DNA of 64,000 nt from Amoebophrya sp. A120 (GCA_905178155.1 CAJINV010000005.1:8959222-9023221), one strand, 5' to 3'. Shown: positions 5,644 to 64,000, counted from the stretch's first letter. The notes: generated by a model not told the origin, from the letters alone. Numbers and translations: made by a program.

Positions 5644-5664
5644 CTTGCTGCTGATCATGTGGCC

Positions 5665-15524: not shown

Positions 15525-18153
15525 TTAAACGATATCCGCCACTTTTGCTAACAGCATGCGTCCGGTCATCCTCTCGTATCCTGAGTAAAAACGTACCCAC
15601 ACCATAGTCAAGATGGGGAATCGGCTAGACAAATCCACAAGTTTTGGCTGTTTTGCATGACAAATTTGGATTCTTAGTGTAGTGCTGTTTGAGCTAGCTC
15701 AGCAGCATCACAGATCTAGCATACCATGCTGATTGGAGCATGACAAATTGCAAAACACGACTAGAAAATGCTTCTCATGGGGCTCCGCATGAGAAACATT
15801 GTCAGCATGCAGATTTGCATTACAACTCTGGTGTGGGTACGTTTTTACTCAGGATATCTCGTACAGCAGAATTACGAGGAAATTCCCCACCAGCAGGAAG
15901 GAATACAGCACTTATTAAGAGGAAAAATCCCCCCTCCCCATATCGAAAACGAAATTTGTGATGCAGATCTGTGGTCACAAATCAGCTTTGTGATGCTAGA
16001 AGGCAAAAGTTGCGGACTCTAGTGCTGTCTAGCGTGGAAAAAACCTTGCGGCTCCAGGATGATAGGAGGTAGCTGGAAGTGGGAAACAGCATGACAGACT
16101 ACCTGCAATTTAGGCCGCAGCTTCGTCTGTGAGCCTTCTAGCAATACAAGTTGATTTGTGTACTCAAATACAGCATCACAAATTCGCGCGCCTTCCGTTT
16201 CCGATATGGGGTGGGAGGATTTTTCCTTTTGATAGCACTGTCTCGTTGTGCTTCAGAAATTCGTCGCCGTGTTTGAAGCCAAACTTGACTATCAGCACCA
16301 CCAACTTCTTATGCTGTGCAAAAGTATCGTACTCGTATAAATGCATTACAAATTGACTTAGCATTACAAATTTAATTTGTAATGCGCATTTGCCTATAAC
16401 AAAAACAAGATTTGTAATGCATAAACGCATACGCAATTAGTACGAGTACGATACTTTTGCAGTTCATACTTCTCGATGAACACCCAGGCCGAGGTGGCCA
16501 CCAAAATGCTGCTGAAAGCTTGCACTGCGGTCTTCCAGATGGGCCGCTGGTGTGACTGATGCGAGAGACTGGTGTCGCCCGTCGCGGTTCTGCCTCCAAT
16601 CTGGGGCTCCACTGCCTCAACCTCCATCGGGATCTGCTGATTTTGGCTGGTATCAAATGCAAATATGTCTGGGTCTGGAAACCTGTGATGCTAAAATGTG
16701 GATGACGGAACTACTTCCGGATGCAGCCCAGCATGACAACTTTCCAGCACGCTTTCTCTTTTCCCATACGCAATCCGCATGAGAAACTGCCTTTTTGCAT
16801 GACAAAAGTGGGAGTGGCTGCGACCCAGACCCAGACGTATTTACATTTGATAGCTGGGTGCGTCCGTGCTCATCAAGGTGCGGTTTAACTGCTCCTGCTC
16901 CAATTTGTGCTGCTGCTGGTGCTGTTGCAACAGCTGTGCGCCGCCCGACGGCGCGGTGTGGTGTTGAAATTCCTGCTGCTGTCCTGCAAAACCCAGGACC
17001 GCGTGCTGCTGCAGATACCAGGCTAGGAGTAGCGAACAGAACCCCACGAAGCCGAACGTGAGCAGTTGCAACCGCAAGTGGTCGGGGAAGAGAATGTCCT
17101 CCACGATCCCTATCCTCAGCAAAAACTTTCCCACCGCAGAGTTGTCATGCAAATGCGTATATGACAGGAACATTTGTAATGCGCATCTCCATAAGGAGCA
17201 TTTCCAATTGTCCTTTGGACTTTGTCATGCTGTAAATCGAGGATGAGACGCTGGGTTTCTCCTAAGGTTGCCTTTGCTACCCAGCACTAAACTGCAGATG
17301 GAAACTTGTCATGCAAAACTCCGAAAACTTGCAGATTGGTGTTGCAGATTTCCCATCTTGACTCTGGTGTGGGAACGTTTTTACTCAGCATAATCCCTTC
17401 GTACCAGTCCCACGTCCACACGATGAAGGGGAAAAGGAGAAACCACTGGAAAACGTTATTGTTGGAAGGTTCGGAGATCGCCGTTTTGATCAGCTCCCGG
17501 GATTATCCAGTGCAAATATGTCTGGGTCTGGAAAGGTGGAACTTGTAATGCTGAGCTTCCACTCCTGTGCAATCTGTCTTGCATGACCAACAAAAGTCGC
17601 AGCCTTTTCTGTCACGCATAAATGCAGTTTCTCATGCGGGCTGCGCATGAGAAAGCGTCCTGCAAACTTGTCATGCTTGGCTGCATGTGGAGGCGTTGTC
17701 ATCATCCACAGTTTAGCATCACAAATTTCCAGACCCAGACATATTTGCATGTGATAGGGATGAAGACGAACCGGAGCCGAGACCGCGGCCGGTATGCATT
17801 GCAAATACGTCTGGGTCTGGAAGTTGGTGACTTGTGATGCTGTTTTTGGATTCCAAAAAAATCTGTATTGCATGAACTGCAAAAGGGTTCCAGTTTTCGC
17901 TACGCGGAGAGGGAATTTCTCATGCTGTATGGGCATCAGAAAGCATTTGCAAAATCTGTGATGCTAGAGCATGCATCACAGACAAAATCATGGGTCATGC
18001 AAAATATGCATGACAGACGTTGCATTTTTCCACGCCCTGACATTGTTGCAGTTGATAGCCGGAAGGTTGCTGCAATTCCCCGGTGAGCTCCTGTGGCGAA
18101 GCGTGTTGCGTCGGTGCCGGCATATTAGAAGTGGTGGTCCCGTAGGAATTCAT
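15525..18153 (-). CDS. Hypothetical multi-pass membrane protein, 8 exons, ~276 aa
   Basis: Removing 7 introners plus one TSD each gives an open 831-nt frame: MNSYG...FQWFLLFPFIVWTWDWYEGIVEDILFP...SILVATSAWVFIEKLVVLI...YSFLLVGNFLVILLYE...KVADIV*. Confidence 0.8.
15577..15856. mobile_element. Introner, family B
   Basis: TIR TATCCTGAGTAAAAACGTACCCACACCA; TSD TCTCG. Confidence 0.92.
15913..16234. mobile_element. Introner, family C
   Basis: TIR TATTAAGAGGAAAAATCCCCCTCCCCATATCG; TSD GCACT. Confidence 0.92.
16310..16468. mobile_element. Introner, family D
   Basis: TIR TATGCTGTGCAAAAGTATCGTACTCGTA; TSD CTTCT. Confidence 0.92.
16651..16852. mobile_element. Introner, family A
   Basis: TIR TATCAAATGCAAATATGTCTGGGTCTGG; TSD GCTGG. 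Confidence 0.92.
17111..17392. mobile_element. Introner, family B, opposite orientation to the 15577 copy
   Basis: B-type TIR; TSD ATCCC. Confidence 0.9.
17504..17756. mobile_element. Introner, family A
   Basis: A-type TIR; TSD GGGAT. Confidence 0.92.
17793..18057. mobile_element. Introner, family A
   Basis: A-type TIR, right arm diverged; TSD GCCGG. Confidence 0.88.
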
Positions 18154-18967
18154 GATGGCGCAGCGCTGGGTGCAGCCGGTAGGCCGAAAAGCATCAAAAG
18201 CTACGCACTTGTACGGGGGGTCCTCGGCGTCGCCGACTACAGGAATGCAAGATGTGAAGGAGCGCGGCTATGAGGACTATATTTTTCCACCATCGTCGAC
18301 TTCATCGACAGAAACAACAACAAGTCGCGAAGATCTGCTGTAATGAAGATATTCTATTTTACGTGTCTGACCACGGAGCTCGTGCGGAGCTACGCAAACC
18401 TTTATTCCCAGATAAGTAAAAACATGAGCCTTTTTGAAACTTCTGTCACGAGAGGACCCTGAGGACTTCTGCTCGTCTCACTCACTAGCAATTGCTTCGA
18501 GCTTCCTCCCTCTGAGTGCAAGAAGAACTCTCAAGTAAGTAGTCGTGTGCTCACATCGTCCTCCTGGCACCAAGCTGGTGCGGCGCACGTCGATGGGACT
18601 GCGAGTTTGAGCGAAAACGACATGAGAATTCATGCATTCCGCAGGAGAAACAGCTCCTCATCCCGGAGATTGAGGCTTGGCTCTGAATAAACAACAGAGT
18701 CATCATCAGATGAAGCGTTTTTCTTTTTTCTGTAAAACTCTCTTGTAGTTGTACTTGTATCGCAACGTCGACTACATCACGAGTCGCAATCATTTCTACT
18801 TCCAATTCATCAATATTGTACAGTGCAGGTAGTGCGTGTCATCCCAAGAAATGGCAACAATATGAACTCAAATCTTATACGAAACTCAAATCTTATACTC
18901 AAGTACGACACGACCATGTTCTTGCAACCAAATAAATCTGTACAAAGCAGTGTCCTCGAAAAATCAA

Positions 18968-20548
18968 TCAATTCTGTCCCTCCGAGTTCCTAAACTTCAG
19001 CATTTCCAGCTTCACCCTATCAAATGCAACTATGTCTGGGTCTGGGAGATTGCGAGATTTGTCATGCTAATCTGGCATCATGACTCTGAACTCTATGTTG
19101 CGGCACCGCAAAGAGCTCACTCTTGCTTGTCATACAAATTATAACTAAAACGCACTTTCTTATGCGGAGTACACAACGCAGAACCACGGAAAAACTTGTC
19201 ATGCTTGATAGCGCATTAAAGTTGTGTGCCCGCTATTCCCTTCCTTGCATCACAAGTTTCCAGGCAGAGGACCCAGACATATTTGCGGTGCATACACTCG
19301 CCGCGTCCGCAGGTTCCACTGCGCGACGATCATTCTGCGCTTAGTATGCTTTGTAAAAACGTCCCCCCCCCAGAGTTGTAATGCAGATCTGCATGCTTAA
19401 ATTGTTTCTCATGCGGAGACGCATGAGAAAATTTCATTTCTAGTGGTGTTTTGAGATATGTGTATGTGATGCATAAATCAGCATGACAAACTGGATCTGT
19501 GATGCTGCTGCACTAGCTAAACGTGACTACATTACAAGCCCGAATTTGTCATGCGCAACAGCCAAAGCTACGTGATTTGTGTAGCAGATTTCCCATCTTG
19601 ACTATGGGATGGATTAGTTTTTACATTGGGTACTTGATCTTCGCGGAGAGTTGCGGAAAATTTTGCTTCAAGTCGTTCTTTATCAAATGCAAAAATGTCT
19701 GGGTCTGGAAACTTGTGATGCTAAAATGTCACTGGTGGGCGCACTGCAATACGCAGCCAAGCATGACAACTTTTTGAGCTGCTCTTGTGTTTCGTTTTCC
19801 GCATGGCAAACTGCGTTTCTGCATGACAGACAAGAGGCCCTTTTCGTGGCTATGCAACACAGATTCATCTCGAGTCATACCAGACAAGCATCACAGACTT
19901 GCATTCTTCCAGACCCAGACATTTTTGCATTTGATATTCTTGTACTGTTTCCACTGCGGCCCAAAAAACTCCTCCTTTAGCTCGTCAAACTTCTCCATCC
20001 TGTGCTAAAGTAACATCGAACTCGCACATCGTAATTGCAATCGTGCGAGACAAATCTTGATCCTGAGCTAAATCAGTATGCTGGCGAATTCCGTTTGTCA
20101 TGCTGAGCTGCAAGTTTGTGATGCAGTTTCTACGTAGTAAGATATTACTTATGCAATGCATATTCTGCTCTTCTTTCTCGAGAAGCTGCTTGTTTTTCCC
20201 GTTTCGTTCCTCCTGCGCACGCGGGGGTCCGCGACCACACGGAGACGTAGAGCTCTTGTGCCGTGCTGTCGGAGGGGATGCTACAGACGCAGCCTCACGT
20301 TTGGACTTGATATGATTCGGCGAGGCTGCGGATGAAGAAGGTCCGCTTTTGTAGTCAGATGGAAGTGCTAGTCTTGATGCTCCAGGTGAGTTTTTTCTCA
20401 ACATCATGCGGGTGTCAGTCAGACAGTTCATCCCGGCTTTCAGTTTTCGCTCGATTCGCTTCAGCTGCTCGTCCACGTCTGCGTCACCACTAGAGACGAA
20501 AGAAGTCGTTGGAGCGGGAGAGGTTAATAGAGCCGTTGTGGCAGCCAT
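18968..20548 (-). CDS. Hypothetical protein, 5 exons, ~190 aa
   Basis: MAATTALLTSP... joined across 4 introners gives 573 nt ending ...KIKRRMIVAQWNLRTRRVKLEMLKFRNSEGQN*. Confidence 0.7.
19018..19294. mobile_element. Introner, family A
   Basis: TSD CACCC/CACTC. Confidence 0.85.
19345..19632. mobile_element. Introner, family B, diverged
   Basis: TSD CTTAG/CTTGA. Confidence 0.8.
19681..19936. mobile_element. Introner, family A
   Basis: Near-perfect 30-bp TIR; TSD TTCTT. Confidence 0.92.
19996..20162. mobile_element. Introner, D-like, diverged
   Basis: TSD TTCTC/TTCTG; removal preserves frame. Confidence 0.65.
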
Positions 20549-35439: not shown

Positions 35440-35582
35440 TAATAACCGACATTGTGATGTCTCTTTACCAGCGGTACAACGTGTGGTAGACTTTCTTAAT
35501 ACGAAGAAAATCAAAGCCGGATGGCAAGCGTTTACTCACCGACCTGTTTATTTCAGCTTCCAGCCACAGAAACTTAAACCCA

Positions 35583-43874: not shown

Positions 43875-43875
43875 N

Positions 43876-48620: not shown

Positions 48621-49415
48621 GATAGCTGCACAACTCCAGAAACAAATTGTACCGAAAAATCTACTACGAGTGGTCACCGATTCTTCCGAGGCGAAGAAAA
48701 ATGAAAACTTAAACTACGTAGTGACTTCAATACATTGCTGCTCGGTGTATTCGATTCATATCAATACCGAAAATTGCAATCACTTACTTACAGTAGGTTC
48801 CCCACGACCGGATAGTACAGAAGTTGGTGTTGGTGTTGGAAAGAAAGAACCTGGCAAACCAGACACAAGAACTAGCTACTGAAATCGGTAAACGAGAAAA
48901 AGAACAAGCCGGGCCCGAAGAGACGAGTCGGAGCTTTCTTCACCCAGCAAATTGGAAAACATGTTTCCCTGCAGCTGCTGCACCCGTCTTCTTCAATATT
49001 TCTGTGGGCAAGCGCAAGGTATTTATTTTGTCGCAAGAAAGATTCATTGTATAAATTCAAAGATGTCGACTAGATGCGGACACGACCCTTCAGCGTCGCC
49101 TTTTCTACTTGTTAAAACAAGCCGCGTACAACTTCTGAAGTAGCTGACCATGTATTTATTTTCATCGTGTTACTTTCCTCCACTTCTGACCACCGAAAAA
49201 AATCATCTGGTGTTCTTCTCGTGGTGAACTGAACCTCGATGCAGCGGCTCCAGAACAAGAAGATCATTATTTCTTGGAAATAAACAATGGAAAAATACTA
49301 AATGCGCGTGATAAATCTTCTCCATTTTTTTCTTCTGGAAAATTCGTACTGCTCGTTGTCCTTGACTTCGCCGCAACTACATGCTGGCTCAGAACAACAT
49401 CAAAAACCTCCCGCC

Positions 49416-52400
49416 TCACTTCAGCGATAGTTGCTGCATAAAGTACCGCGCGTTCGGTGACACAGAGATGTGTCCGTTTTTCGACAGAAAGTTCTGAACC
49501 TGCAGCAGCCTCTGCCGCAAGATTTGGGATCCCGAACTCCCGGGCAGCAGCTGGTCCTGCAGCATGCCGCCCCCCGCGGTATTCCCGAAATGGTCCGCCG
49601 CGTAGTACCGCGTCAGTAGGCTGATGTACGTCTCCAGGATTTTGGTGTAGTCGACGGAAAAAAAGCCGGGGAGCATTTGCTCATCCGGGTTGGAAAGAAA
49701 TTCCTCCCGATCGAAAAGCTCTAAAGCCTCTTCGTACCTGAGTTCACGTTGTAGAGGTCGTTCTTTTTTGATAATTATTTGCATTATGTCGAAATGTTCT
49801 GCACGACCAAGCATGCATTGCGATTGCGATGTTGTGAGTTTTGCATGACAACACCTCTTCGCAGCATCTTCTTCAAAAGCCGTTCGTACTAAGTACATGA
49901 TCATAGAACAAACTTCTAATTCTATACCTTCCCTGGTCCCGGACGCAGTCGTGGAAGTGTTTCAACCGCCACAGCTTGCAGACGAACCTCCACACCCTCG
50001 TGATTTCGTCCGAACTCCGCGTGGTCTGTTGCGCCGCACGGGTGCCATGATCCGCCGCGTTTGTCACAACCATACCGGAGTTGTTAGAGGAATTCACATC
50101 GATTCCGAACGACGCCCCGTAATCGGCGTACATGCTCAAGAACTTGCGGCACTCCTGTTCTAATTGCCGCAGTTTAAAACTATTTGTCCACGCGGTAGTA
50201 CTAGCCGCACCTCCCGACATGGAAGTACTAGTGGCTCCACCACCAGCCCCGCCCCCGCCAATCGGCTCCTGACCGGGGGTGAAGGTGGCACCGGAAGACA
50301 AGTTGCGGCTGCCGCAGCTGGCCACCTCCGTGAAAGCGGGGAGCCGCAGAATCCGCTGCATGGTTTCCAACACTTTCCGGTAGTTGGTGGACAGGTGGAG
50401 AAACCGCAACGCCAGGATGTACTTCCCGCGACGAAGGGCGTCGAGCCCCAGCGACTCCATGATGCTCCGAAATTCGCTGGTAGTGTCATTGGAGGAGGAA
50501 ATCTTGTTGTTCATCAACAGCTCTCCTGCGCCGTTACTGGAAGAACCACTCGAGTTGTTGCCCTTCATTTTCATCTCTCTTTTCCGGTTCAAATGGTCGA
50601 CTTTCGCTTCCAAAGACTCCTGCAACAGGCCCTTCGTGTGGGAGCCGTCGAGTAAGATTTTTCCGGTCAGAAGCTCCAGGGGAGAAAAATTATTGTCGTG
50701 GTCGGGTACTAGCATGTTACTAATCCCTGTCGAAGCTGCTCCTACTCCACCCGAGCCCGGAGCGGTACTTGTTACCACTTCCGCATTTGACTGCGTGAAG
50801 GACTTTAAAATCCGCAGATAGGCGTATTTTCGGTCAAAGGGCTGCATATCGTACGAAAAAACTGTCTCACTGTGGTGATTTTGCAAAATCTGCATCACAA
50901 GTTTGTTACGCATGACACTGAAAATCTGTCATGCGGGGTTCCCAAGGGAAAAAACAGCTAGAAATCAATTGTCTTGCATGTGTAGCATGACACACACTTC
51001 TGCGATCCATTTTCTGCATCACAAGTTCACAATGAAACAGTTTTTTCTTGCGATACTGCAGGATTTGGATGTAATTCAACTGCTCGCTCACGTCAAACAT
51101 ATGCAAGAGAAAAACTGTGTAAGTGTAACTTTCTTTGGCTGACAGCATCACAAATTTGCTCTACATGACAGAGAAAACCTGTCATGCTTGGCTTGTAAGG
51201 GAAAATACACATGAAAAAAGGACTTCATGGCTGTGTGGCATGACAGGTGTAACTCTGTTGCATGTTTTGCATTACAGAGTTACACTAACACAGTTTTTTT
51301 CTTGGATAAAACAGCTGGTTGCTGTAGTTCACAATCTCGTCGACGTAGGGGTTTTATCGAATGCAAATATGTCTGGGTCTGGGAAAGTGCAAGGTTTGTC
51401 ATGCTAGCATAGCAAGACTCTTAAGTCTGTCATGCTCGTTACCGAAAAGCCCTATTTTCCTGTGATCGAGAAACGCAGTTTGTCATGCAGAATAGGCAAC
51501 ACTTAGAAGCCTAGGAACTTGTCATGCGGAGCCAGCATTTGTGGCCTCCACATGCTAAGCCACTCAGCATTACAAGTTTCCAGACCCAGACATATTTGCA
51601 TTTGATAGGTATTTTTCCTTGTCAAAATCCAACACGTGGGCTTTCGCCAGTGTCACCGCCAGATGGATCGTGATAGAGGACCTGAGGTTGTAGAAGTGAG
51701 TATTACCAATACAACTTTGTCGTCCTCGTGGTCGTGTCTCAATTTACAAAAAAGAACAATCATGCGCGTGGATTTGCATGCCCATCGTGGTGGAACTGTT
51801 GAAGTCAAGGCAACTAGACTAGGGCATCGAAAGAAAATGCAAATCATTTATATCATAACACAAAAAGAAACAATACAGCAAGGCCGGGTTTCGGTTTTTC
51901 AGCGCTCGGAGCCCCTTCGCGTACTGTAAGGAGAGTATCCCACGAAAAAACTGTTTCACTGTGATGATTTTGCAATATCTGCATCACAAGTTTGTTACAT
52001 ATGACGCGGAAAACTTGCCATGCGCGCTTCCCAAGGGAAAACACGCTTCAAAATCCAATGTCTTGCAGGTGTAGCAAGACAAAGAGTTTTGTGTTCCATT
52101 TTCTGCATCACAAGTTCACAGTGAAACAGTTTTTTCTTGCGATAGAAAGAAACAGTAATTTGATGTCATCCAGCTGGAACTGGGATTGTTTCGTCGTGTT
52201 CAATATCGGGTGCAAACATGTCTGGGTCTGGAAGGTTGCAACTTGTCATGCTAAATCTGAATCATGCAACGAACCTGTGTTGCGTGATTACCAACAGCCG
52301 TCCTTTTTTACCAAGTTGAGAGGGAACTTCTCATGCAGGAGAGGCATGATAGAGATCTCACAGAATTTGTCATGCCAGGTGCTGCATTCTAAACCCTATG

Positions 52401-55400
52401 AACCATAGAAAACCTGCATGACAAACCTGGCAATCTTCCAGACCCGGACATTTTTGCATTTGATATTCAAAAAGTTTGCCACGTCCGCGCCCGAAGTTCC
52501 CCCGCTCAGCAGACCCATATTTGCCCCCCCGAACCGGCTGCCCTGCTGGAAAAAGGACATCATGTTCAGGTTGCTGCTGCCGAAACCGCCCAGGATGCTG
52601 CCGCCGGACTTGCGCGCGTCCGTCCACTCAATGATGGACATGATATGGAAGCGTCAGGTTTGAAATCGACAAACTTAAAATGATTTGTCATGCATAAAAT
52701 GCAAGGCATGAAGTGCCTGTCTTGCCGGGATGGCAAGCGAGGCAGATTGTGAGCCTCTTTAGGGTTTGGGATAGACTTGCTAAAGGAGCACGACCAAAGC
52801 AGTCTTCTGTGCCCAAACAGCATGACAAATTGGATTCCGGTGCTCCGAAAACTTGTCACGCAACCGCTTGCAAATTGGGCTTCCAAGTGGTATCGCTTTT
52901 ATGCATAGCAAATCATTTCAACTTTGTCGATTTCAATCCTGACACTCCCATACATGATTTTCTCTTGGTACTCTTCCAGCGAGCACCTTTTGTTCTTGAC
53001 CAACAGCAGGTTATGCCACACCAGGTTCTCTGAGGTCCGCATGCGCTCCGAGAACATGTCGCGTGGGTGATTCGAGAAATTCGGGATGTGGTACTGTTCC
53101 TCCTGGAGCGTGAGTATCCAGGAAAAAAACTGTGTAAGTGTAACTGTGTAGGAAGAGCAGCATCACAAATTAGCTTTGCATTACAGGGAAAATCTGTCAT
53201 GCGCAGCTAGTACGTGGAAACACGTATGAGAGTAGCGTATGACGCAGATCCAGCATGACAAGTGTAACAGTTTTGCACTTTCTGCATCACAGATTTACAC
53301 TTACACAGTTTTTTTCTTGCATAGTGAGCGAAGTGTCTTCAAAAGGGAAATCCTCGCCCAGGATAAGTTTCAGACACAACTTATCCTGAGTAAAAACGTC
53401 CCCACCACAGAGTCAAGATGGGGACTTTGCAACACAAACCTAGAAGTTTTGATGGTCACGCATGACAAGTTTCAGTCCGTAAGGTAGTGCCAGTTAGCAA
53501 GGAAAGCCGCATCACAAATCGATCTGCTGATCCTGTTTACAGCATTACAAGTTCCCAAACACGATTGGAAATGCCTGTCATCGGGCTGCGCATCACAAAT
53601 GTTCCTGTCATGGCAAATCTGCATGACAACTATGGTGTGGGGACGTTTTTACACAGGATACAACTCCCGGAACACCGCCCCGTTCTGGCTCTGCTGGCTC
53701 CGGTTGGTGGTGGACATCTGCGGCTGGCCACCCGGGTTGTAACCCGCACCGTAGTGCTGCTGATGGTGCCCGGAAGTGGCGTTGCTGTGTTTTTTATATT
53801 TCGAGAATAAGTCAGTCTGGTTGTGCGCTTTGTAGTTTCTTCATTATACAAATTCCTAGGCGGTTTGCTTTCGAAATGAACCACGCGCCTTGATGACCTA
53901 CCTTGTAAAGCATGCCAATCTTTGCAGAATAACTTCTTGAGCCTCTCGAGTAGAGAACAAACTCAGTATGGTACTGTCGACGTGAAAGAACCGAATGCTA
54001 ACACCCACCTCATCAAGTGAGCATCATTATCATCAAGTTGTAAGTATATGATACCCGGCCTCATTCCCCCACATCCTGTGATATCCAAGAAAAAAACATT
54101 GCAGGTGTAACTTTTTTGGAGGAACAGCATTACAAATTTGTCTGGCATGACGGCAAAAACCTGTCATGCGCAGATAGTACGTGAAAACGCCCTTTAATGG
54201 ACCCTACGACGCTTGCCAAGCATGACAGACGCAATCACTTTGCATCTTGCGCATCACAAATTTACAGTAACAACGTTTTTTTCTTGGATATGTGGATTCC
54301 AGATCCCAGTGCGGACTCGATGGTAGCTACGACGGAGTTATCAAATGCAAAAATGTCTGGGTCTGGAAGAATGCAACTTGTGATGCTGCATTTGGATGTC
54401 TAAAAAATTTGTGTTGCATGAGCAGCAAAAGGATTCTCAATCTTGCTACGCGGAGAGGGCATTTGTCATGCGGAAGAGGCATCACGAATCCCTCAAAAAA
54501 CCTGTGACGCTAGGGCACGCATCACAGACATCATGGCTCATGCAAACCGTGCGTGACAAGTGTCAGAATCTTCCAGACCCAAACATTTTTGCATTTGATA
54601 GGAGTGCTCCAATGAAACCGAGGTGCCCTGGAGCAGCGAGATCAGCACCGGAATGCAGGTTTGCACACACAAATCGAATTCCGCTGCGTTCGCAAAGCAC
54701 TGCCTATCCTGCGTAAAAACAGGACCCACGAAGAACGTGGTATCAACAAGGAGGAGGTGTTGAGAACTCTAGTACTACAGATGAGATGTATCTTTGGTTG
54801 TTGCTACTCGAAATGCCAAATCTCATGTTGAATCCGCAGAGCAAAAAGCTACTGTGCGGTGGTGTTCTTGGCCAGTGCCAGAAATCCGATCAAGTGGAAA
54901 GGACCACACTCAAGAATGCTCCTGCGCGGGCCTTGTTCAACTGCTCTATGCAGATGACTCGTCGCATGACACTACGGATGTTGTCCTCGTTCTCCACCTG
55001 TGGGAACTCGTTTTTACCCAGTCGATACTGCCGCAGCCTCGCTTCGGATTGCAGGTACCGCAGCATCTCCGGACTATCTACGCGCAGCGCGTGGAAAACG
55101 AGGAACCTGATGTTGTTGTGATGTTAATGTTTACGGTATTTGTGCATGACAGATGCTAGTTGTACTCTCCTCCTGCAATTACACATTCAACATAGTCTAG
55201 TACAGAGAACAAGTGCTATACCATGCGTGTCCAGCGGTGGAGGGGAAGTGGGCGTCGTCCCATATGATCATGCCGTAATTGATCAGCAGACTGCATATGT
55301 CTTGCTCCGCCGTTCGTGGTATGAATTGCAAAAGTATCGTAATCGTACTCATGTAAATGCATTACAAATTTCCTCAGCATGAGAAATAAATTTTGTAATG

Positions 55401-58400
55401 CGGACTTACCTTAAGAAAAAAATTTGCGATGCATGGCCGCAACTACTACGGGCACGATACTTTTGCAGTTCATACGTGGCATCTGTTTGCAGGAATCCCG
55501 AATCTCGCTGATTTTCCACATCCGCAGAAACTCGACTTATGCAAGAAAAAAGCTGTGTAAGTGTAACTCTGTAATGCAGAAAATGTAACAGAGTTACATC
55601 TGTCATGCCAGACAGCCATGCAGTCCTCATTTCATGTGTGTTTTCCCTTACAAACCCTGCATGACAGACATTCTCTGTCATGTAGAGCAAACTTGTGATG
55701 CTGTCAGCCAAAGAAAGTTACACTAACACAGTTTTTTTCTTGGATACGATCCCCCGGTCGACTAACAAGGGAGCGGCTGTTTTTTAATATTGTGCATAAT
55801 GGAATTCAGAAGTATACGAGCGTAGAGCGAAAAACTAATTTTTCTATCATACTAGCAAAAGTACACTAGCAGTCGTGGTCTCTCGACACATACAAGGTGA
55901 GGACCTGCCACAAGACACCTGCAACTACCACGATTTTTACCTTGTTTACAACAATCGCAACACAATTATAAAACCATGAATTTAAAAAATCTTTATCTAG
56001 AGGACACTGATAAAAAGTACTTATCGTCATCGGATCTTGTCCCACCAATGCCAGCACCAGTTCCCACAAAAACTTCAGGTCGCTGCAGTACTCGCTCCCG
56101 CTGTAACTTTGCAGCGACAGCGAGTACACCTCGAAGGCCAGGCGGTCGATGGTCATAAAGGAACTCCGATTGAACAGTTCCGCGATATCGCGCTCGATCT
56201 GCAAGTTCTGGTGCAAATTCCCCGTCGTGTTCGGCTGCACCAGTAACGCCGAAGACCTACCTGCGCCGCCGTTTGCACTAGTTCCCCCGCCCGACAGGAC
56301 CACGCCCTTCTGCCGGCTGGCCTGATTCCCCACCGCGGGGGCTCCCCCGGAGAGGTTCAGCAAAAAATCCGTGCCCAGGTCGTTCCCGGCCCGGATCTGC
56401 TCGATGATCTTTTTTTTCATCGTGTTCCACTGGTAATTCAACTTCGCGGAGGATTTTGCGTTGGCCTTGTAGAAGCTGTCCTTCATCGATTCTTCGATGC
56501 TGCTAGTCAGCGTGTTGTGCAATTCGTTCAAAAAAGACTGCGCCACCACGGGCCCCCGCCCAGTTCCCTCCGTCGCTTCGTCCTCTAAAACGTCGTCGTG
56601 TAGTAAGTCAAACCGGGAAGAAGCTGTTCCACCCCGAGCGGACCCTTTGGTTTGAAACTGCAGCTCGTCATGTTCCTGTCCCGGGTAGGTTCCGTCTTGC
56701 TCCAACTGGTGAGGCGCATCGAAGTCGATTTGCTGCAGCAGCTGCAGGCCCGAAAGCTCGCGGTCCTGGTAGTCCGTCCGGGAGTCTTGCAGAAGTCGGT
56801 GCAGCTGTTTAGTAGTAGGAAAAGGAAGGCTTTTCCTTTTGCATTCTGGTTGTTGAAAAAAGTGCACGAATCACAACTGTATCATTTTTTTTTCTCATGA
56901 GGAGAACTACCCCACGTCAAAAACGCCCCATATGCAGCAGGACAGTGCAGGTTGAAAAGTGGATGAGAAACGACCCAATTTTCCAACATCGCTACCTACA
57001 AGTACAAGAGCCTCGACTTGAAAAATCAAACGATGCGACGGAGAAGCATAATATTACGTGAGTACAACTTCAAACATGAAATCAGTACAAAAATCTACCT
57101 TCGACTTGTTCGAGGCCAAGCCACTTCCCGCGCCCACCCCGAGCGGCACCGAACCAGCGCCGCTCCCGGCGCCACCGCCCAGTCGCGTGCTGTCGCGGAC
57201 TATCAAAAGCAAATATGTCTGGGTCTGGAAGGATGTATTACTTGTAATGCTGCATTTGGATCCTGAAAAAATCTGTATTGCAGGAGAAGCAAAAGATATG
57301 CGTTTTTTGCTACTCGGAGGGGGCATTTCTCATGCAGTATCGGCATCAGAAAGCCGTCACAATAGCTGTGATGCTCGCGCATGCATCACAGACCTCGCCG
57401 GTGATGCAAAATGTGCATGACAAACTTCCAGACCCAGACACTTTTGCAATCCATAAGGACATCTTGGGAAAACTTCGCCAGCCCTTCCGCGATCACATTC
57501 TGCACGTGCAGGCTATGGAGCTGTCAGGATCGAAATCGACAAAGTTGAAATGCTTTGTCATGCATAGAAAGGATGCCCGTTGTAACCCAGTTTCCAAGAT
57601 GCGCATGACAAATTTGGGTAGCGCCGGAATCCAGTTTGTAATGCTGCTCCGGTAAGGAAGACGCCTTTTGTCGTGCTACTTTAGCAGCTCTATGTCTACA
57701 ACCCCTCGACAGGCTTACTGCCTCCCTTGCCTACTCTGCAAGAGAGGCATTTTGTGGGTTGCATTTTATGCATTACAAACTATTTCAACTTTGACGATTT
57801 CAGTCCTGACGCTTCCATACAGATCGTTTGCCAAGTAGTTGCGGTTTCGCAGCCGCTCGTGCCCGTCCTGAAACAGTTGTATGAAATGCAAAAATGTCTG
57901 TGTCTGGAATGTTGCCGGATTTGTGATGCATATTTTGCATGGCCCAGGATGTCTGTAATGCACGACCTAGCATCACAGATTTTTAGTGGGCTTCCTGATG
58001 CCTACTCCGTATGACAAATGCCCTCCCCGCGTAGCACAAACTAGACTCCTCTCGCTGGTCATGCAATACAGATTTTTTTTTACCTTCCAAAGACAGCATC
58101 ACAAGTTCCAACCTTCCAGACCCAGACATTTTTACATTTGATAAGTTGGGATAAAGAACAGCTCGGGTTGCTGCTCTGGACGGACGTGTTATTCCCCTGC
58201 TGCCGCGAAGCTGGGTTCCTCCCCCTGGAAGAGGAGGACTTGTGGACGGAGGACGTGTATCAAATGCAAAAACGTCTGGGTCGGGAAGGTTACCAGGTTT
58301 GTCATGCATCTTTTGCATGACTCAGAATGTCTGTAATGCATGATCTAGCATCACATATTCTTAAAGGCCTTACTGATCGATGCCTATCCCGCGTGACAAA

Positions 58401-58948
58401 TGCCTTCCCCGCGTGGCACAAACTGGGCTCCTCTTGCCGGTCATGCAATACAGATTTTTTTAGAATCCGGAGTCCGCATCACAAGTTGCAATCTTCCAGA
58501 CCCAGACATATTTGCAGTTCATAACGTGAACAGAAACTGCTGGCCGGAGGAAGCGTTTGAATTGCGCTGGTTCCGTTCGTAGAGCGCTTCCATATGAAAT
58601 GCAAATATGTCTGGGTCCGGAAACTTGTAATGCTTAAAGTGAATCATAGACGCACTGCAATACGCAGCTGCACATGACAAATTTTTCGGCTGCCATGTCT
58701 TACGTTTTCCGCATGGCAGACTGCGTTTTTGCATGACAGGTAAGAGGGCCATTTCCTGCCTATGCAACGCAGATTCTCGAGTCATGCCAGACAAGCATGA
58801 CACACTTTCATCCTTCCAGACCCAGACATATTTGCAATTGATATTCCAAAGTCGTTTGCATTCTCTTCAGCGGCTTCGACGGTTGGGAGGAACCGCTGGC
58901 GCCGCCGTTCGGCAGCGTACCAAAAACCGACTGCGGGGGAGGCGCCAT
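49416..58948 (-). CDS. NUP93: Nucleoporin Nup93/Nic96-like, many exons
   Basis: Segments resemble Nic96 in order: TLEALYERNQR; TSSIEESMKDSF...QWNTMKKKII; TSENLVWHNLLLV...SLEEYQEKI; ALRRGKYILALRFLHLSTNYRKVL; KHFHDCVRDQGRYEEALELF. ATG at 58948 (MAPPPQSVFG). Not every junction was resolved. Confidence 0.7.
50847..51055. mobile_element. Introner, family F
   Basis: TATCGTACGAAAAAACTGT / ACAGTTTTTTCTTGCGATA; TSD CTGCA (duplicate at 43563-43771). Confidence 0.9.
51100..51308. mobile_element. Introner, family F
   Basis: TSD AAACA. Confidence 0.9.
51355..51607. mobile_element. Introner, family A
   Basis: TSD GGTTT/GGTAT. Confidence 0.9.
51936..52144. mobile_element. Introner, family F
   Basis: TSD GAGAG/GAAAG. 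Confidence 0.88.
52204..52465. mobile_element. Introner, family A
   Basis: TSD TTCAA. Confidence 0.9.
52644..52952. mobile_element. Introner, family E
   Basis: TSD CATGA. Confidence 0.9.
53115..53323. mobile_element. Introner, family F
   Basis: TSD GTGAG. Confidence 0.9.
53382..53660. mobile_element. Introner, family B
   Basis: TSD CAACT. Confidence 0.92.
54082..54290. mobile_element. Introner, family F
   Basis: TSD TGTGA/TGTGG. Confidence 0.9.
54339..54600. mobile_element. Introner, family A
   Basis: TSD GGAGT. Confidence 0.92.
55320..55474. mobile_element. Introner, family D
   Basis: TSD CGTGG. Confidence 0.9.
55538..55746. mobile_element. Introner, family F (reverse orientation relative to the 51100 copy)
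   Basis: TSD CGACT/CGATC. Confidence 0.88.
57201..57455. mobile_element. Introner, family A
   Basis: TSD CGGAC/AGGAC. Confidence 0.88.
57514..57819. mobile_element. Introner, family E
   Basis: TSD CAGGC/CAGAT. Confidence 0.88.
57880..58143. mobile_element. Introner, family A
   Basis: TSD AGTTG. Confidence 0.92.
58258..58523. mobile_element. Introner, family A
   Basis: TSD ACGTG. Confidence 0.9.
58593..58843. mobile_element. Introner, family A
   Basis: TSD TTCCA. Confidence 0.92.
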
Positions 58949-61479
58949 GGTTGGTGTTCGTTGTTGCACCACTTGTCGTTGCGGAGGAGAAACTTACTTC
59001 GGAGCAGCTCGGGGGGCAAAAGATGCTCGGGAAATTATTGGTTGTTTTCCTATGCGTGTGGCATTAGGCTTTTTTTAGAATTAATACGGATACTGTCGCG
59101 GGAACATGAAATCGCAACCCATTCATCTTCACGAGCGGTGCATCATGTTTTGCGCGCTACCAGAAATGAATGAAACTCGAAGTAGAAGTTCTCTATCAGG
59201 GATGAATGCTATGCCGCTAGTAATTCATTATCCGTGGACTACAACTTCTTTACTGGCTAGGTAGAAAGAGAAAATATGAGTCCATTTCTATTTCCATTTC
59301 TCCTCTGATGTGTGTCGCTGGAAATAAGGAACAGAACAAATTTGTACGAATAAGCTGCGTGGAAATATTAAAACCACAAAATTTATTGGAACTAGAAGAA
59401 CTATCCCAAATGGAGCGCCGACGACCTAGCAGCGTGCCTGCCTACAGAATATTAAAGGCGGCCCTGCTCTAGGTGAGCGTTTAATTTCTTCAAAAGTAGG
59501 AACCGCGGTGATTGTAAAAAGGACCACACCGGATGAACTTTTTGAGCAAAAATAAGCTATTGCATCTTTATTTTACAAAAATTTTAGAAGAACCAAGACG
59601 AGAAGTTTTTGATTCCAAGCTCGGCTCTGGTGCTGAACGGGATCTGATCATCTTTCTGGAGCTCTGCGTCGAAATAAATAAACCAAACATTCAAAAATGA
59701 ACTGTGAAGGAGGACTAACTGCAGCAAAAGGATCTTCGATTTGCTGCACTGAAGGATTTACTCGCATCTACGGGTCAGCACAAGTAGAAAGAGTCGGGGT
59801 TTTATTGATCACAACAGGGAGAAGTCGTGGCAGTATCGAGTTATTTCCATCTTGTTCCCTTTGGTTTTACCAGCTGATGATTGCTCGAGCTTGTGGATTT
59901 AGTCGTGAGTTGTACTGCAAAAGCTCGTCTTTGATCGACACTTCTTCATCGTGATCTGATGTATCGGAAGAACTACTTATAAAAAAAAAGTGCGTTGTGC
60001 AACACGAAAGAACTTTATTTTTTCCGCGAACAAACAGCACCATCCGTCTGGACCAATGGCCCGCCATAGTACCCACAGAAACTTCCAACCCAGTTTTGGG
60101 AGCGCAGAACCTCCGCCGGGGGCTGCGAAACAGATACAAGTTGAGATACAAGTAGAAATGATACAGGGTTCGTCTAGTGCGAGTGAGATTATCAATCGAA
60201 ACGTGGTTCTTTTATCCCGAAGTATTTTATTCCGGAAATATTATCCCTTTTGTTGCATTTCCTTCCATGCTCGGGTGGTTAAAATTCCAGCATTCCATTT
60301 GTAGTTCAAACAGAAGTCCTCTTCTCTATGAAGTGGAATCAACTGGCGCGTTTTGTCTGCGACAGGCTGAAGTCTTTTCCTAACTTTATTGATTCCCTAA
60401 TACTTCTTCCCGAACCGGACCTGAGCTGCAGTCTGTCCATTACGACGTAGTACATGGGTAGAAGTAGAAACTCCATTGGTTTCATCTGTGGACTTGCTTC
60501 ATCACATACAAATTTCATTGCGCAACAGGATAGAAGTACTGTGGGACGGTGATTCAACATTATCATATGTTCAGTTGCATTTTTACATAGGACCAGTGGT
60601 TTGCGAAGTTCTTCTTGAAAGCAAGACAGACTCTTTACTAAAAAAATGGTTGTGTACAGTGTGAAGACATCTCTCTGCTGAGGGGTAAAGATGAAATTTC
60701 TGCTAAAAGTATTATAAAATAGTCAAAAGTTGTAAGCAGTGCCAATAAAGTGTCGCGTGAAGAAGATCACTGATAATTTATTAATCGAAGGAGGAAACAA
60801 CGCCAGATCATGCAGCAGGAAGGCCAACGTCCCATCCTGCGTGCGAGTTCGGTGGATTCCTCGAAACAAACTGCTCCACGAAAGCATGAATTTTTCTTCA
60901 CTTTTTCTACATACTGATATTGCGCCAGCAAAGATGTAGAAATTTGCTTTTCACCTAGACTACCGAGGATGCCCTACTAGCACAGATGGTGCACAACAAG
61001 CACAACATCCCCGTTCCAAACCCAAAGCTCCTCTAGACTTGCGGGAGCCCGCTCTCCGCCTCGTGTTGATATCAGCCAGAAAAAAAGGGCCTGTGAAATA
61101 GCTTTTGTGCATCGATTTCCATGCTAAAAACGTAGTTGTGCCGCATCATAATCGGCGTCAAAATTTATGAAGAAGGCGTTCCTCGAGTGAGACGCAACTG
61201 CTTTTGTAACATACAACTCATGCGTTGAAACTCTGAAAGAACAATGTGAACGACACAAAAACGACCCACAGGCATGTACTGACGACTTTTTCCGTCCGAT
61301 AGATCGCATTTGCCGTTATCAGGCGTGAGATTCCCCTTTCCCAGTACGGAATCCATCGCGGCGCTTTTGTTTTCCACCGTCGCGTTGTTGACGACCTGTT
61401 GTTTACTTAAGAAGTTTTTTCCTTCTTGATCTTGTTCAAGCACGAGCACAAGTTCGCACACTAGGCACAGACGTGTTCA

Positions 61480-61840: not shown

Positions 61841-62113
61841 GTGTATGTTAGTAAGCATGTTGCGACACTGCACGACAAAGTCAGCATACTAACTTGCTTC
61901 ATTTCACCTTCGCAAGGACCACAAAGTGGTCACACGCCATTAAGTACGCATGACAAACCTCCGCTATACCTTTCCCTCCCCTTCGCCGCAGCCATGGAGT
62001 GCCGTGAGTGGTGGCGAACCAGAACAAGCAAGCGCAGCTTGGGTGTCGTGCGAGTGCGTCGGAGCCTGATATTAACGAAGAGGAATTGTTCGTAATGTCT
62101 GGTCTGCGAACAA

Positions 62114-64000
62114 TCACACTCGTAGACGCAAAACACCCAAGTATACACAAAAAAACGCACTGGACATGTGTCTACTTTCTATTCTTACCTCTTCTCCTAC
62201 CGCCTGTTCCTTGTCCCAACCAGATTCCGCCATCGTTCCGTAAGACCCCGCCAGTTTGTCCTCTTCAAAACCACTTTGCTGCTCCTTTCCCCGTATCAAA
62301 TGCAAATATGTGTGGGTCTGGAAAAGTGCAACGTTTGTCATGCACGTTTTGCATGACGCATGAGGTCTGTGATGCATGCCCTGGCATCACAGATTCTGTG
62401 AGATCTTTGCGATGCCTTTTCCGCATGAGAAACTGCCTCTTGGCTTGCTCAAAAGTGGACAGCTATCTTTGTAATCATGCAACACAGGGCTTTGCATGAT
62501 TCAGACTTAGCATGACAAGTTGTACTCTTCCAGACCCAAACATATGCAATGCATACCCCGCCTCGGCGATCCGTAGTTTATTCTGTGTAAAAACGCCCCC
62601 ACCCCAGAGCTGTCATGCAAGTCTGCATGCCAAGAAAGTTTCTCGTGCGGAGCCCCATAAGAAGCATTTTCTAGTCGTGTTTATTTGGAATTTGTGATGC
62701 TAAAATCAGCCTGATATGCTAATTCTGTGATGCTTCTAAACTACCTCGACAGGATTACACGACGAGGACAGACTTGCCATGCGAATGAAACAAACAAAGC
62801 TGACTAATTTGCCTAGCAGATTCCGTATCTTGACTCTGGTGTGGGGACGTTTTTACTCAGGATATAGTTTCTGTTTCCACCGCCATCACCTTTGTAGTAC
62901 CGAAAGCAGATCGCGAAGATCCGGCGAATATCAAATGCACATATGGCTGGGTCTGGAAGAATGCAGAGGTTTGTGATGCAGCTTTGGCATGACCAAGAAG
63001 GTCTACCATGCACGCCCTAGCATTACAGGTTTTGAGAAGGTCTCCTAATGCGTAACCCGCATGACAAAGCCCTTTTTTCGGTGGCGCGAAATATGCACCT
63101 TTTGGTTTACATGCATGACAGATTTTTGTGTGATGTGAAATGCGCATCACAAGTTCGCATCTTTCCAAAACCAGACATACTGATACTTGCACTGCATAGC
63201 GAAAGATTCCATGGTACCAGCAAAAGAAGACGAACACCAAGATATCAAAAGAAAAAATCCCCCGCCCTCCCCATATCGAAAAGGACACTCGTGGTGCTGG
63301 ATATGCGTACACAAATCAGATTTGTCTTGCAGTAGAGAACTGCAGGCATATGCCAACCCTGGGAAGCGAGGGTCTTGACCACATAGGCGCCGAGCATTAC
63401 AAAGGTCCACACTGCAGACCCAACAGCATCACAAACCGCCTGCTCAATGCGGCGCAGGCTGTGCAATTGCCTCCTTGCAAGACAGATACGATTTGTGGCC
63501 ACAAATCAGCATTGCAAATTCTCTGTGGCTTCCTTTTCGATATGGGGAGGGGGGGAAATTTTTCTTTACGATACAGTACTGGCGCTGCGGCGAAAATGCC
63601 AAAGTGTAACGCCCATGGATGCTTCTGCACGAACCGCGCCAAGTCCTGCATGTCGGCTGGATTGAAAGTGTGCACGTTGAAAGTTTCTTCCCTGTACTTT
63701 GTGCTCCCGGGGCGGGTGGACCTGCTTCTTTCCGAACTGGAGTTTCCCTTGTTCATCCCGTGGTTTCCAGAGGATTCTTCTAAACCGTAGCCGTACTGCC
63801 CTTGTCCTCCGGCCTCCCCCGGACTGGTGGTAGAAGCCACAGCGGAAGAAGAAGCCGAAGTGGTTACTTCTAGCAAGGTTCTACTTTCGTCCGCTGCAGC
63901 ACGATCATCACCGGTCGTAGAGATGACTTGTGGTTCTGAGCTGGCGACTTCTGGTCCGTGAGTCTCAAACTCGGTCACCGCTACACTTTGCTCGTCGGGT
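62114..64000 (-). CDS. 3' part of a hypothetical membrane protein; start outside the window, 3' end uncertain
   Basis: ORF 63397..63978 continues across 4 introners: ...HFGIFAAAPVLVFVFFCWYHGIFRRIFAICFRYYKG...RNYGSPRRGKEQQ... Confidence 0.65.
62294..62555. mobile_element. Introner, family A
   Basis: TSD CCCCG. Confidence 0.9.
62579..62864. mobile_element. Introner, family B
   Basis: TSD TAGTT. Confidence 0.9.
62929..63198. mobile_element. Introner, family A
   Basis: TSD GCGAA. Confidence 0.85.
63243..63573. mobile_element. Introner, family C
   Basis: TSD CAAGA/CAGTA. Confidence 0.9.

What the first reader, a model, noticed from the sequence alone, without database searches (positions are those of the whole stretch)
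15577..63573. Unrelated introner families share a grammar: TAT(C/G)...(G/C)ATA ends, an A-tract and repeated GCATNACA
Seen: families A-F have different TIRs, yet nearly all begin TATC or TATG, carry an A-run about 10-16 nt in, and contain several TGT(C/G/A)ATGC / GCAT(G/C/T)ACA motifs, often one facing inward near each arm (e.g. 37568-37819, 55538-55746, 16310-16468). The motif is rare in exons. Inference: it is a common binding site for one mobilising transposase or for a dedicated splicing factor. The transposase superfamily with TAT..ATA ends and 5-bp TSDs is not evident to me.
Basis: partly seen in the sequence, partly recalled or inferred. Interest (0 to 1): 0.7.

Follow-up and report, generated by a model that had tools for sequence, protein, structure and literature searches.

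The report
Introners share a spaced DNA-binding code
Small transposons that serve as introns in this Amoebophrya-like parasite share their published end sequences and also carry an 8-base motif at fixed distances from their ends, likely a landing site for one DNA-binding protein, probably their still-unidentified transposase.

Summary
Observation confirmed. The window holds 51 non-redundant TIR elements in 7 families plus one B-ended hybrid. They have TAT(C/G) ends, 5-bp target duplications and 164 GCATNACA sites (11.8/kb, against 0.26/kb outside). A cDNA-like contig removes each element plus exactly 5 nt at non-GT-AG sites. These match the published Amoebophrya A120 introners: TAT plus A-run ends are in Farhat 2021, and TA/TA ends with a 5-bp TSD are listed for an integrase-like family in Gozashti 2025. 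The internal motif was not found in print. It recurs in 382 of 395 elements of a second assembly, including families absent from the window. It starts 33-34 or 41-45 nt from the ends, repeats at 30-33-nt spacing in 9 families, and shows no strand bias in pre-mRNA. That favours a double-stranded DNA site over an RNA splicing signal, most likely for a shared integrase-type transposase; no autonomous copy was found. Unexpectedly, GCATGACA is also the top-ranked 8-mer in non-coding DNA outside introners, so a host protein is a serious rival. 'Unrelated' is unproven: families align through motifs and ends but not after masking. A 7.3-kb duplication in the window looks like an assembly artefact.

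The parts
1031..1228 (.). family A element, degenerate left end (TAAC), 2 motifs, TSD 4/5
   Evidence: excision +5 joins a 333-aa + strand ORF
1429..2457 (.). family A ends around a GAAGA/TCTTC satellite, 1,029 bp, 1 motif, TSD 4/5, non-coding
5205..5464 (.). degenerate family C element, 1 motif, TSD 3/5
13178..13488 (.). family F element (no A-run), 1 motif, TSD 5/5, in frame in a DDE-like gene
15577..15856 (.). family B, 4 motifs all on +, TSD 5/5
15913..16234 (.). family C, 4 motifs, TSD 5/5
16651..16852 (.). family A, 3 motifs, TSD 5/5
17111..17392 (.). family B, 4 motifs all on -, TSD 5/5
17504..17756 (.). family A, 3 motifs, TSD 5/5
17793..18057 (.). family A, 4 motifs, TSD 5/5
19018..19294 (.). 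family A, 3 motifs, TSD 4/5
19345..19632 (.). family B, 5 motifs, TSD 3/5
19681..19936 (.). family A, 4 motifs, TSD 5/5
19996..20162 (.). decayed family D-like copy with a CATC start, 2 motifs, TSD 4/5 (not among the 51)
30749..31057 (.). family C, 3 motifs, TSD 5/5
   Evidence: 368-aa ORF on excision
31118..31427 (.). family C, 2 motifs, TSD 5/5
31634..31934 (.). family B, 2 motifs, TSD 5/5
31988..32305 (.). family C, 2 motifs, TSD 5/5
35923..36092 (.). family D, degenerate, 1 motif, TSD 4/5
   Evidence: first of 11 elements whose excision +5 gives a 1,044-aa minus-strand ORF
36508..36787 (.). family B, 4 motifs all on -, TSD 5/5
36876..37164 (.). family B, 4 motifs all on -, TSD 3/5
37222..37540 (.). 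family C, 1 motif, TSD 5/5
37857..38118 (.). family A, 3 motifs, TSD 4/5
38325..38474 (.). family D, 3 motifs, TSD 5/5
38985..39202 (.). family G (no A-run), 2 motifs, TSD 5/5
39274..39418 (.). family D, 2 motifs, TSD 4/5
39691..39983 (.). family B, 3 motifs all on -, TSD 3/5
   Evidence: an RNA-type contig stops at the last base of its duplicate, 47267
40501..40779 (.). family B, 5 motifs all on -, TSD 5/5
43563..43771 (.). family E, 209 bp, 5 motifs, TSD 5/5 (identical to 50847-51055)
43876..51158 (.). second copy of a 7,284-bp tandem duplication after the single N; likely assembly artefact; its elements were not counted
   Evidence: 7,205 identical bp; DNA-run contig depth 44-49 here against 42-48 in single-copy DNA
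51100..51308 (.). family E, 4 motifs, TSD 5/5
51355..51607 (.). family A, 5 motifs, TSD 4/5; spliced, length +5
51936..52144 (.). family E, 2 motifs, TSD 4/5; spliced; cut at most 2 nt before the 5' TAT
52204..52465 (.). family A, 3 motifs; spliced, length +5
52644..52952 (.). family F (no A-run), 2 motifs; spliced, length +5
53115..53323 (.). family E, 5 motifs; spliced, length +5
53382..53660 (.). family B, 5 motifs, all UGUNAUGC in the RNA; spliced, length +5
54082..54290 (.). family E, 4 motifs, TSD 4/5; spliced, length +5
54339..54600 (.). family A, 3 motifs; spliced, length +5
54705..55027 (.). B-type ends with a foreign interior, 1 motif, TSD 5/5; spliced, length +5 (one register reads GC..AG); found only through the RNA joint
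55144..55151 (+). GCATGACA inside a canonical GT-AG intron, outside any element (likewise at 49843)
55320..55474 (.). family D, 2 motifs; spliced, length +5
57201..57455 (.). family A, 4 motifs, TSD 4/5; the exon piece ends at 57196, so the cut lies at least 1 nt before the 5' TAT
57514..57819 (.). family F, 4 motifs, TSD 3/5
   Evidence: length accounting
57880..58143 (.). family A, 4 motifs, TSD 5/5
   Evidence: length accounting
58258..58523 (.). family A, 4 motifs, TSD 5/5
   Evidence: length accounting
58593..58843 (.). family A, 3 motifs, TSD 5/5
   Evidence: exon piece starts at 58844
62294..62555 (.). family A, 4 motifs, TSD 5/5
   Evidence: 238-aa ORF on excision
62579..62864 (.). family B, 3 motifs all on -, TSD 5/5
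62929..63198 (.). family A, 5 motifs, TSD 5/5
63243..63573 (.). family C, 2 motifs, TSD 3/5
49001..59300 (-). host gene whose 4,463-nt cDNA-like contig lacks the introners and the canonical introns

Best explanation
These are non-autonomous TIR DNA transposons (MITE-type introners) that are spliced out exactly, and GCATNACA is likely the subterminal double-stranded DNA binding site of one shared transposase, probably of integrase type, that would move all the families. Shown: TAT(C/G) ends, 5-bp TSD, removal of the element plus one TSD copy from RNA, the motif in every family, its fixed offsets (33-34 or 41-45 nt) and 30-33-nt spacing, and no strand bias. Inferred: the catalytic domain reads only the terminal TAT while a DNA-binding domain docks on spaced motif arrays. 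That would let the rest of the TIR and the interior drift apart into 'families'. Selection would act on lineages that keep transposing, and inserted copies would then decay slowly. Splicing would rely mainly on the paired ends, with cuts 1-2 nt before TAT and 3-4 nt after ATA if the register is fixed. My odds: DNA rather than RNA site about 0.85; bound by the transposase itself about 0.55; integrase type, given that, about 0.6.
For: Position: in window plus loci elements, TGTNATGC starts at 33-34 (108 sites) or 41-45 (305 sites) from the nearest end, with 7 sites closer than 33. At family level 14 of 19 arms fall in these bands, and 12 of 24 same-direction spacings up to 70 nt are 30-33 nt, in 9 families; 0 of 20,000 permutations reached this. 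Strand: 243 GCAUNACA against 276 UGUNAUGC in 163 strand-called elements, p=0.16; 27 carry only the first, 22 only the second; families insert both ways. Constraint: motif columns differ 2.1-3.8% from the subfamily consensus against 8.1% for other columns and 10.2% for the N; this is about the TSD mismatch, 4.1%. Copies with imperfect TSDs add about 1.0 point in motifs and 1.2 elsewhere, as neutral decay after insertion predicts. Generality: 382 of 395 elements in a second assembly; held-out families 83 sites against 2.1 in shuffles. Five empty paralogous sites carry one TSD copy. Literature: A120 fam38 has ORFs homologous to Copia/Gypsy elements, likened to Ginger integrase-type transposases, and is tabulated '5-bp TSD, TA/TA Termini'. 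IS3EU/GingerRoot have TA..TA ends. MITE subterminal motifs bound by a transposase are a precedent (PMC1636448 abstract).
Against: No autonomous element or cognate transposase was found, and Farhat 2021 found no transposase in A120. GCATGACA ranks first of 5,391 8-mers in non-coding, non-element DNA (37 against 6.6 expected). Its variant spectrum there is more G-skewed than in elements, with few one-mismatch neighbours, which looks like selected host sites rather than relics. The age test is weak: a 1-point difference, TSD mismatch is a poor clock (rho 0.12 with nearest-neighbour identity), and window motif counts do not differ with age (3.35 against 2.94, p=0.33). No clean 10.5-bp period (p about 0.06); 18-, 39- and 49-nt spacings also recur. 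Shared spacing may reflect shared ancestry. The fam38 sequence was not seen, so whether it carries the motif is untested.
Confidence: 0.55

Rival explanations
1. GCATGACA is the site of a host sequence-specific DNA-binding protein (possibly a domesticated transposase). Introners would carry spaced arrays of it either as a transposition cofactor site or as a strand-independent DNA mark that recruits splicing during transcription.
For: Top-ranked 8-mer in 166 kb of non-coding DNA after strict element masking, under Markov orders 3, 4 and 5, ahead of the GTAAGT donor words; not enriched in coding tiles (5 against 3.9). Flanks match the introner profile; no strand bias (11 against 16, 30 uncalled). 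5 of 12 same-direction orphan pairs are 29-35 nt apart. Present in 2 of 6 RNA-defined canonical introns. U1 snRNA was not detected in these parasites.
Against: Density is about 12/kb in elements against about 0.3/kb outside, and the fixed offset from transposon ends is easier to explain by a transposase. 4 of 6 canonical introns lack it. Orphans could be relics of undetected old families; Farhat reports IR/DR structure in 15% of A120 canonical introns. Coding and non-coding tiles were classed by a hexamer score, not by annotation, and the Markov background was trained on the same tiles, which deflates the one-mismatch excess.
Confidence: 0.25
2. The motif is an RNA signal read by a dedicated splicing factor on the pre-mRNA.
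For: Present in nearly every element; conserved; all 11 RNA-verified copies carry at least one UGUNAUGC in the transcript sense, as do both motif-bearing canonical introns.
Against: No strand bias. 27 of 163 strand-called elements show only GCAUNACA, including four family-B copies whose removal is needed for a 1,044-aa ORF. The 5' and 3' arms show the same offsets. Copy number ranges from 1 to 6.
Confidence: 0.08
3. The motifs only extend the RNA hairpin, as internal inverted repeats.
For: 16 of 51 elements have an inverted pair near both arms.
Against: Only 46 of 163 sites pair with another motif in minimum-energy folds. Family B carries its motifs almost all in one direction. Pairing would not fix one sequence across families.
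Confidence: 0.04
4. All families descend from one ancestral MITE, and the motif is an inherited remnant without function.
For: Unmasked profiles align B to C (14 of 27 members, median 316 nt), D to family 10 and G to family 7; 22 of 55 consensus pairs beat block shuffles at z>2.5.
Against: After masking motifs and ends, cross-family hits fall to 0-2 per pair. The motif is 2-4 times more conserved than its surroundings and its N position is free, so it is selected whatever the ancestry.
Confidence: 0.04

Closest known systems
Amoebophrya A120 introner elements (Farhat et al. 2021, PMC7789003; Gozashti et al. 2025, PMC12130899)
   Same: TAT start, about 7 variable bases, then an A-run; 3-5-nt direct repeats; non-canonical splice sites. 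Family lengths here (110, 150, 209, 236, 262, 281, 309, 321) match the tabulated A120 families of about 107, 149, 209, 234, 252-260, 278, 305 and 320 bp.
   Different: The internal spaced GCATNACA array, the strictly 5-bp TSD with a bracketed cut register, and the enrichment in host non-coding DNA were not found in the text I could search; figures and sequence files were not visible.
Amoebophrya A120 family 38 ('Ginger' in the supplementary table)
   Same: Tabulated as TIR DNA, 5-bp TSD, TA/TA termini; intron-forming.
   Different: About 810 bp with ORFs homologous to Copia/Gypsy elements; the main text says it lacks the usual Ginger termini and TSD. Its sequence was not seen, so the motif is untested.
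IS3EU/GingerRoot DNA transposons
   Same: TA..TA termini; integrase-type DDE transposase.
   Different: TSD usually 6 bp; GingerRoot TIRs 100-150 bp; here strictly 5 bp, and no transposase in hand.
Ginger2/TDD (TDD-4, TDD-5)
   Same: 5-bp TSD in Dictyostelium; integrase-type.
   Different: TGTNR termini, not TAT.
Emigrant MITE / Lemi1 (PMC1636448)
   Same: Works-like precedent: element-encoded proteins bind TIRs and, cooperatively, subterminal repeated motifs (abstract).
   Different: pogo-related; other ends; binding was shown there and is only inferred here.

Membership tests
Amoebophrya A120-type introner | IR starting TAT, then an A-run | tested here: met
   TAT in 98 of 102 arms, TATC/TATG in 94; A-run in 87 of 102, absent in F and G
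Amoebophrya A120-type introner | 3-5-nt direct repeat at the junctions | tested here: met
   5 bp exact in 34 of 51; five empty sites
Amoebophrya A120-type introner | removed from mRNA at non-GT-AG sites | tested here: met
   11 of 11 displayed introner joints skip length +5; none allows GT..AG, one allows GC..AG; one sample, RNA status guessed by the tool
Amoebophrya A120-type introner | sequence identity to published A120 family consensuses | not testable with these tools
   no sequences in the supplements held
MITE (non-autonomous TIR element) | short, TIR plus TSD, many dispersed copies, no ORF | tested here: met
IS3EU/GingerRoot | TA..TA termini | tested here: met
   102 of 102 arms start TA, partly by selection; profile-based ends mismatch 2.3-3.5% at positions 1-3
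IS3EU/GingerRoot | 6-bp TSD | tested here: not met
   0 of 50 exact at 6 bp, 33 of 50 at 5 bp
IS3EU/GingerRoot | integrase-type DDE transposase in an autonomous partner | tested here: inconclusive
   none found in the window or 563 kb of loci; no whole genome held
Ginger1/Ginger2 | TGTNR termini | tested here: not met
   termini are TAT(C/G)
Ginger1/Ginger2 | 4-5-bp TSD | tested here: met
   5 bp, as TDD-4/5
hAT5 (5-bp TSD hAT; recalled lead) | hAT transposase and terminal consensus | not tested
   one paper search gave a single listing, not read; the TSD length is recalled
Merlin/IS1595 | 8-bp TSD | tested here: not met
   8 bp; 0 of 50 at 8 bp

The most novel reading that the evidence does not exclude
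GCATGACA is a genome-wide host DNA mark bound by one protein, perhaps a domesticated transposase. Introners spread because their spaced arrays recruit this protein on double-stranded DNA, which both licenses their mobilisation and tells a U1-less splicing machinery where a non-canonical intron lies, whichever way round it is inserted.
Probability: 0.15. Interest if true: 0.88.

Novelty: new variant of a known kind. Interest (0 to 1): 0.56.

Why it matters
How Amoebophrya's tens of thousands of non-canonical introners move and get spliced is stated as open in Farhat 2021, and most A120 families are still 'TIR DNA, Unknown' in Gozashti 2025. A motif common to all families, with exact geometry, would unite them under one trans-acting protein. 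It gives a search key for the missing autonomous element and a defined probe for pull-down. The bracketed cut register gives a concrete splice model to test. If the host-site reading holds, it would be a DNA-level intron mark.

Tried and rejected
No whole genome is held for the window, and the loci's records were not searchable by handle, so the search for an autonomous copy covers only the window and 563 kb of non-redundant loci. The viral-contig scan with the family-A end pattern found 0. Six catalogued copies over 400 bp in the loci have no convincing ORF: most are nested insertions, and one (L029) is an unrelated motif-free element. Long-range pairing of orphan ends gave nothing convincing. 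Pfam on the 100 longest of 248 ORFs of 200 aa or more found no transposase or integrase; 148 were not scanned, and intron-split genes would be missed. The DDE-like giant gene at 6324-13780 has no flanking TIR with a convincing TSD and 0 motifs in 5470-13170, so I rejected it as the mobiliser. A clean 10.5-bp period was not shown. No pair of diverged orthologous insertions was available for an in-situ selection test (one near-identical pair of 435). No run on record as RNA was listed as a holder; raw-read runs X9 and X10 laid only 29 and 17 reads, so they are uninformative. Three look-ups of earlier findings gave nothing relevant. The second Atlas search did not complete. Paper searches for the motif (25 of 2,762 listed, none on this organism) and for later Amoebophrya splicing work showed no report of it. 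Figures, including Farhat's IR logos (Fig. S25), were not visible and may bear on novelty.

Full report
1. Observation. The raw window holds 215 GCATNACA sites on both strands, nearly all in AT-richer stretches from 15.5 kb on. A 7,284-bp tandem duplication (7,205 identical bp) sits around the single N at 43875. Contigs of a DNA-type run have depth 44-49 there against 42-48 in single-copy DNA, so I treat it as an assembly artefact and dropped the second copy before counting. TIR scans, BLAST and one RNA joint gave 51 elements. The first 50 were clustered at 65% global identity into groups I call A (18), B (10), C (7), D (5), E (6), F (3) and G (1); 1429 and 5205 were assigned by their ends. 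The 51st has B-type ends and a foreign interior. Ends are TATC/TATG in 94 of 102 arms, and an A-run is present in 87 of 102 but not in F or G. The TSD is 5 bp (33 of 50 exact; 0 of 50 at 3, 4 or 6-10). My list was partly chosen on a 5-bp repeat, so two independent checks matter. In a second assembly, a scan free of terminal bias returned '5 bp + TAT' as the top class (233 of 757 candidates), and five empty paralogous sites carry a single TSD copy. The motif is 164 in 13,865 bp against 11 in 42,807 bp; shuffles give 3.8 on average.

2. They are introns. Removing each element plus 5 nt restores long ORFs, including 1,044 aa across 11 elements. In the loci, +5 was the best excision in 114 of 140 informative cases. 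A 4,463-nt contig from runs X3-X6 (one sample; RNA status is the tool's guess, but it skips GT-AG introns) spans 49001-59300 on the minus strand. Of 15 joints displayed (3 more not shown), 11 are introners, each skipping its length plus 5, and 4 are canonical. Record lengths also balance for five further elements (280 against 280). None of the 11 allows GT..AG; 54705 allows GC..AG. Two imperfect TSDs bracket the cut: at most 2 nt (51936) and at least 1 nt (57201) before the 5' TAT, hence 3-4 nt after ATA, if one register is used. This rests on two copies. A DNA-type contig keeps element 54705, so that one at least is not removed from DNA.

3. A held-out set. The 160 loci give 563 kb of non-redundant DNA and 395 elements. 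They fall into the same seven families plus new ones. 382 of 395 carry the motif, and 32 members of families absent from the window have 83 sites against 2.1 in shuffles. The loci were chosen through family A, which is over-represented.

4. Geometry. TGTNATGC starts 33-34 nt (108 sites) or 41-45 nt (305 sites) from the nearest end, with 7 sites nearer than 33. At family level, 14 of 19 arms fit these bands and 12 of 24 same-direction spacings are 30-33 nt, in 9 families; no permutation of 20,000 matched that. Three helical turns, and a one-turn step from 33 to 43, would fit a protein on duplex DNA. A period scan did not single out 10.5 (p about 0.06), and 18-, 39- and 49-nt spacings recur, so phasing is suggested, not shown. 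A motif near both arms holds for only 16 of 51 window elements. The six window copies of family E are all 209 bp and align without gaps.

5. Transposition or splicing. In 163 elements with a called gene strand (118 of 395 loci elements by ORF, 45 from the window), the pre-mRNA shows 243 GCAUNACA and 276 UGUNAUGC (p=0.16). 27 elements have only one form and 22 only the other, and the 5' and 3' arms look alike. Family B has nearly all its motifs in one direction and occurs both ways round in coding sequence. Against my reading, every RNA-verified copy has at least one UGUNAUGC; removal of GCAUNACA-only copies is inferred from ORFs and one contig end. In 25 subfamilies (325 copies), motif columns differ by 2.1% (outer) and 3.8% (inner), the N by 10.2%, other columns by 8.1% and TSD pairs by 4.1%. 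Copies with imperfect TSDs add about 1.0 point in motifs (72/1,752 against 258/8,345) and 1.2 elsewhere. This fits selection in transposing lineages followed by neutral decay, but it is a weak test: in the window alone, motif counts do not differ with TSD state (p=0.33).

6. Are the families unrelated? Unmasked profiles cross-align, in places over most of the length (B to C in 14 of 27 members; D to family 10; G to family 7), and 22 of 55 consensus pairs beat block shuffles. With motifs and 30-nt ends masked, cross hits drop to 0-2 per pair. Deep common descent with only motifs and spacing retained is as plausible as convergence.

7. The surprise. After strict masking, GCATGACA ranks first of 5,391 8-mers in 166 kb of non-coding tiles (37 against 6.6, 7.3 and 15.8 under Markov orders 3, 4 and 5). 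It is not enriched in 248 kb of coding tiles, and it shows the same flanks and no strand bias. The excess is about 30 G, 8 C and 1 T, against 709:376:245 in elements, and one-mismatch neighbours are in only modest excess. Five of 12 orphan pairs lie 29-35 nt apart (looser masking). Two of six RNA-defined canonical introns hold it. Relics of old introners or selected host sites could both give this, and I could not separate them.

8. What is known. Farhat 2021 (PMC7789003; abstract, passages, sections 12 and 16, supplement text searched) describes A120 IRs as TAT, seven variable bases and at least three As, with 3-5-nt direct repeats, no U1 snRNA detected and no A120 transposase found. Gozashti 2025 (PMC12130899; passages and all 58 A120 rows of supplementary file 8) leaves most families 'TIR DNA, Unknown'. 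It lists family 38 as Ginger with '5-bp TSD, TA/TA Termini', while its text says this family has Copia/Gypsy-like ORFs and lacks the usual Ginger ends. Family lengths match mine. IS3EU/GingerRoot have TA..TA ends with 6-bp TSDs (PMC10045372 and PMC6839031, passages); Ginger2/TDD have TGTNR ends with 4-5 bp (PMC2836005, passages). So the elements work like integrase-type MITEs but fail the TSD test for IS3EU and the end test for Ginger, and I do not file them under either. I also saw passages of PMC11282704 and PMC4455052, the abstract of PMC1636448, and PMC9860276 as a listing only. The motif was absent from the supplement texts searched and from the listings. Figures and sequence files were not visible, and subscription papers are not held. 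The organism is inferred from these features only.

9. Verdict. The feature is real. The elements and their end grammar are known; the spaced internal motif, the cut bracket and the host non-coding enrichment appear unreported. The best reading is a subterminal duplex-DNA site for one shared, probably integrase-type transposase (0.55), with a host DNA-binding factor as the main rival (0.25). Interest 0.56.

Noticed in passing
window 6324-13780 (+): A giant split gene (ORFs 6324-8981, 8686-11772, 12888-13780) matches one unnamed 1,661-aa protein, P0003, in three collinear blocks (E 3e-16, 4e-36, 1e-16). By eye it has a P-loop-like segment, a Zn-ribbon-like region and a C-terminal IS1595/Merlin-like DDE pattern (recalled motifs). 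There is no Pfam, PHROGs or PDB hit, and the Atlas gave a weak 'transposase' lead at 0.90. It carries a family-F introner in frame, and no TIR or TSD was found. It may be an undescribed large mobile element and deserves its own follow-up.
   Followed up: partly
window 36592-43874 / 43876-51158: 7,284-bp tandem duplication around the single N, identical over 7,205 bp, with single-copy read depth: likely a scaffolding artefact.
   Followed up: yes
L009:11473-12727, L063:3862-4492, L062:571-1051, L031:632-1465, L065, L066, L101, L102: Nested insertions with poly(A) or short-repeat tails often break an introner at or just before a motif; L009 and L063 share a 3' end and duplicate a target that starts inside the motif. 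Not tested against chance; microhomology could explain it.
   Followed up: partly
window 1429-2457: Family-A ends enclose about 700 bp of GAAGA/TCTTC low-complexity satellite; excision still restores the host ORF.
   Followed up: partly
window 23227-32553 (-): Five tandem paralogous ORFs of 370-600 aa with no significant Pfam match among the four scanned; only the last carries introners (4), so the others could serve as empty-site controls.
   Followed up: no
window 35586-41429 (-): A 1,044-aa ORF with 11 introners, with motifs recalled as CCR4/nocturnin-like; not searched.
   Followed up: no
window 49001-59300 (-): Spliced gene with 18 introners; weak below-cutoff Nup93/Nic96 Pfam hit on the duplicated exon (E 0.076).
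   Followed up: no
window 61400-62000: Two diverged direct repeats about 190 bp apart hold motif sites without recognisable TIRs.
   Followed up: no
window 14380-14990: Tandem repeat with a unit of about 90 bp downstream of the giant gene.
   Followed up: no
L029:11405-12270: An 866-bp element with long TIRs, TAC ends, a 4/5 direct repeat and no motif: a different TA-ended family.
   Followed up: no
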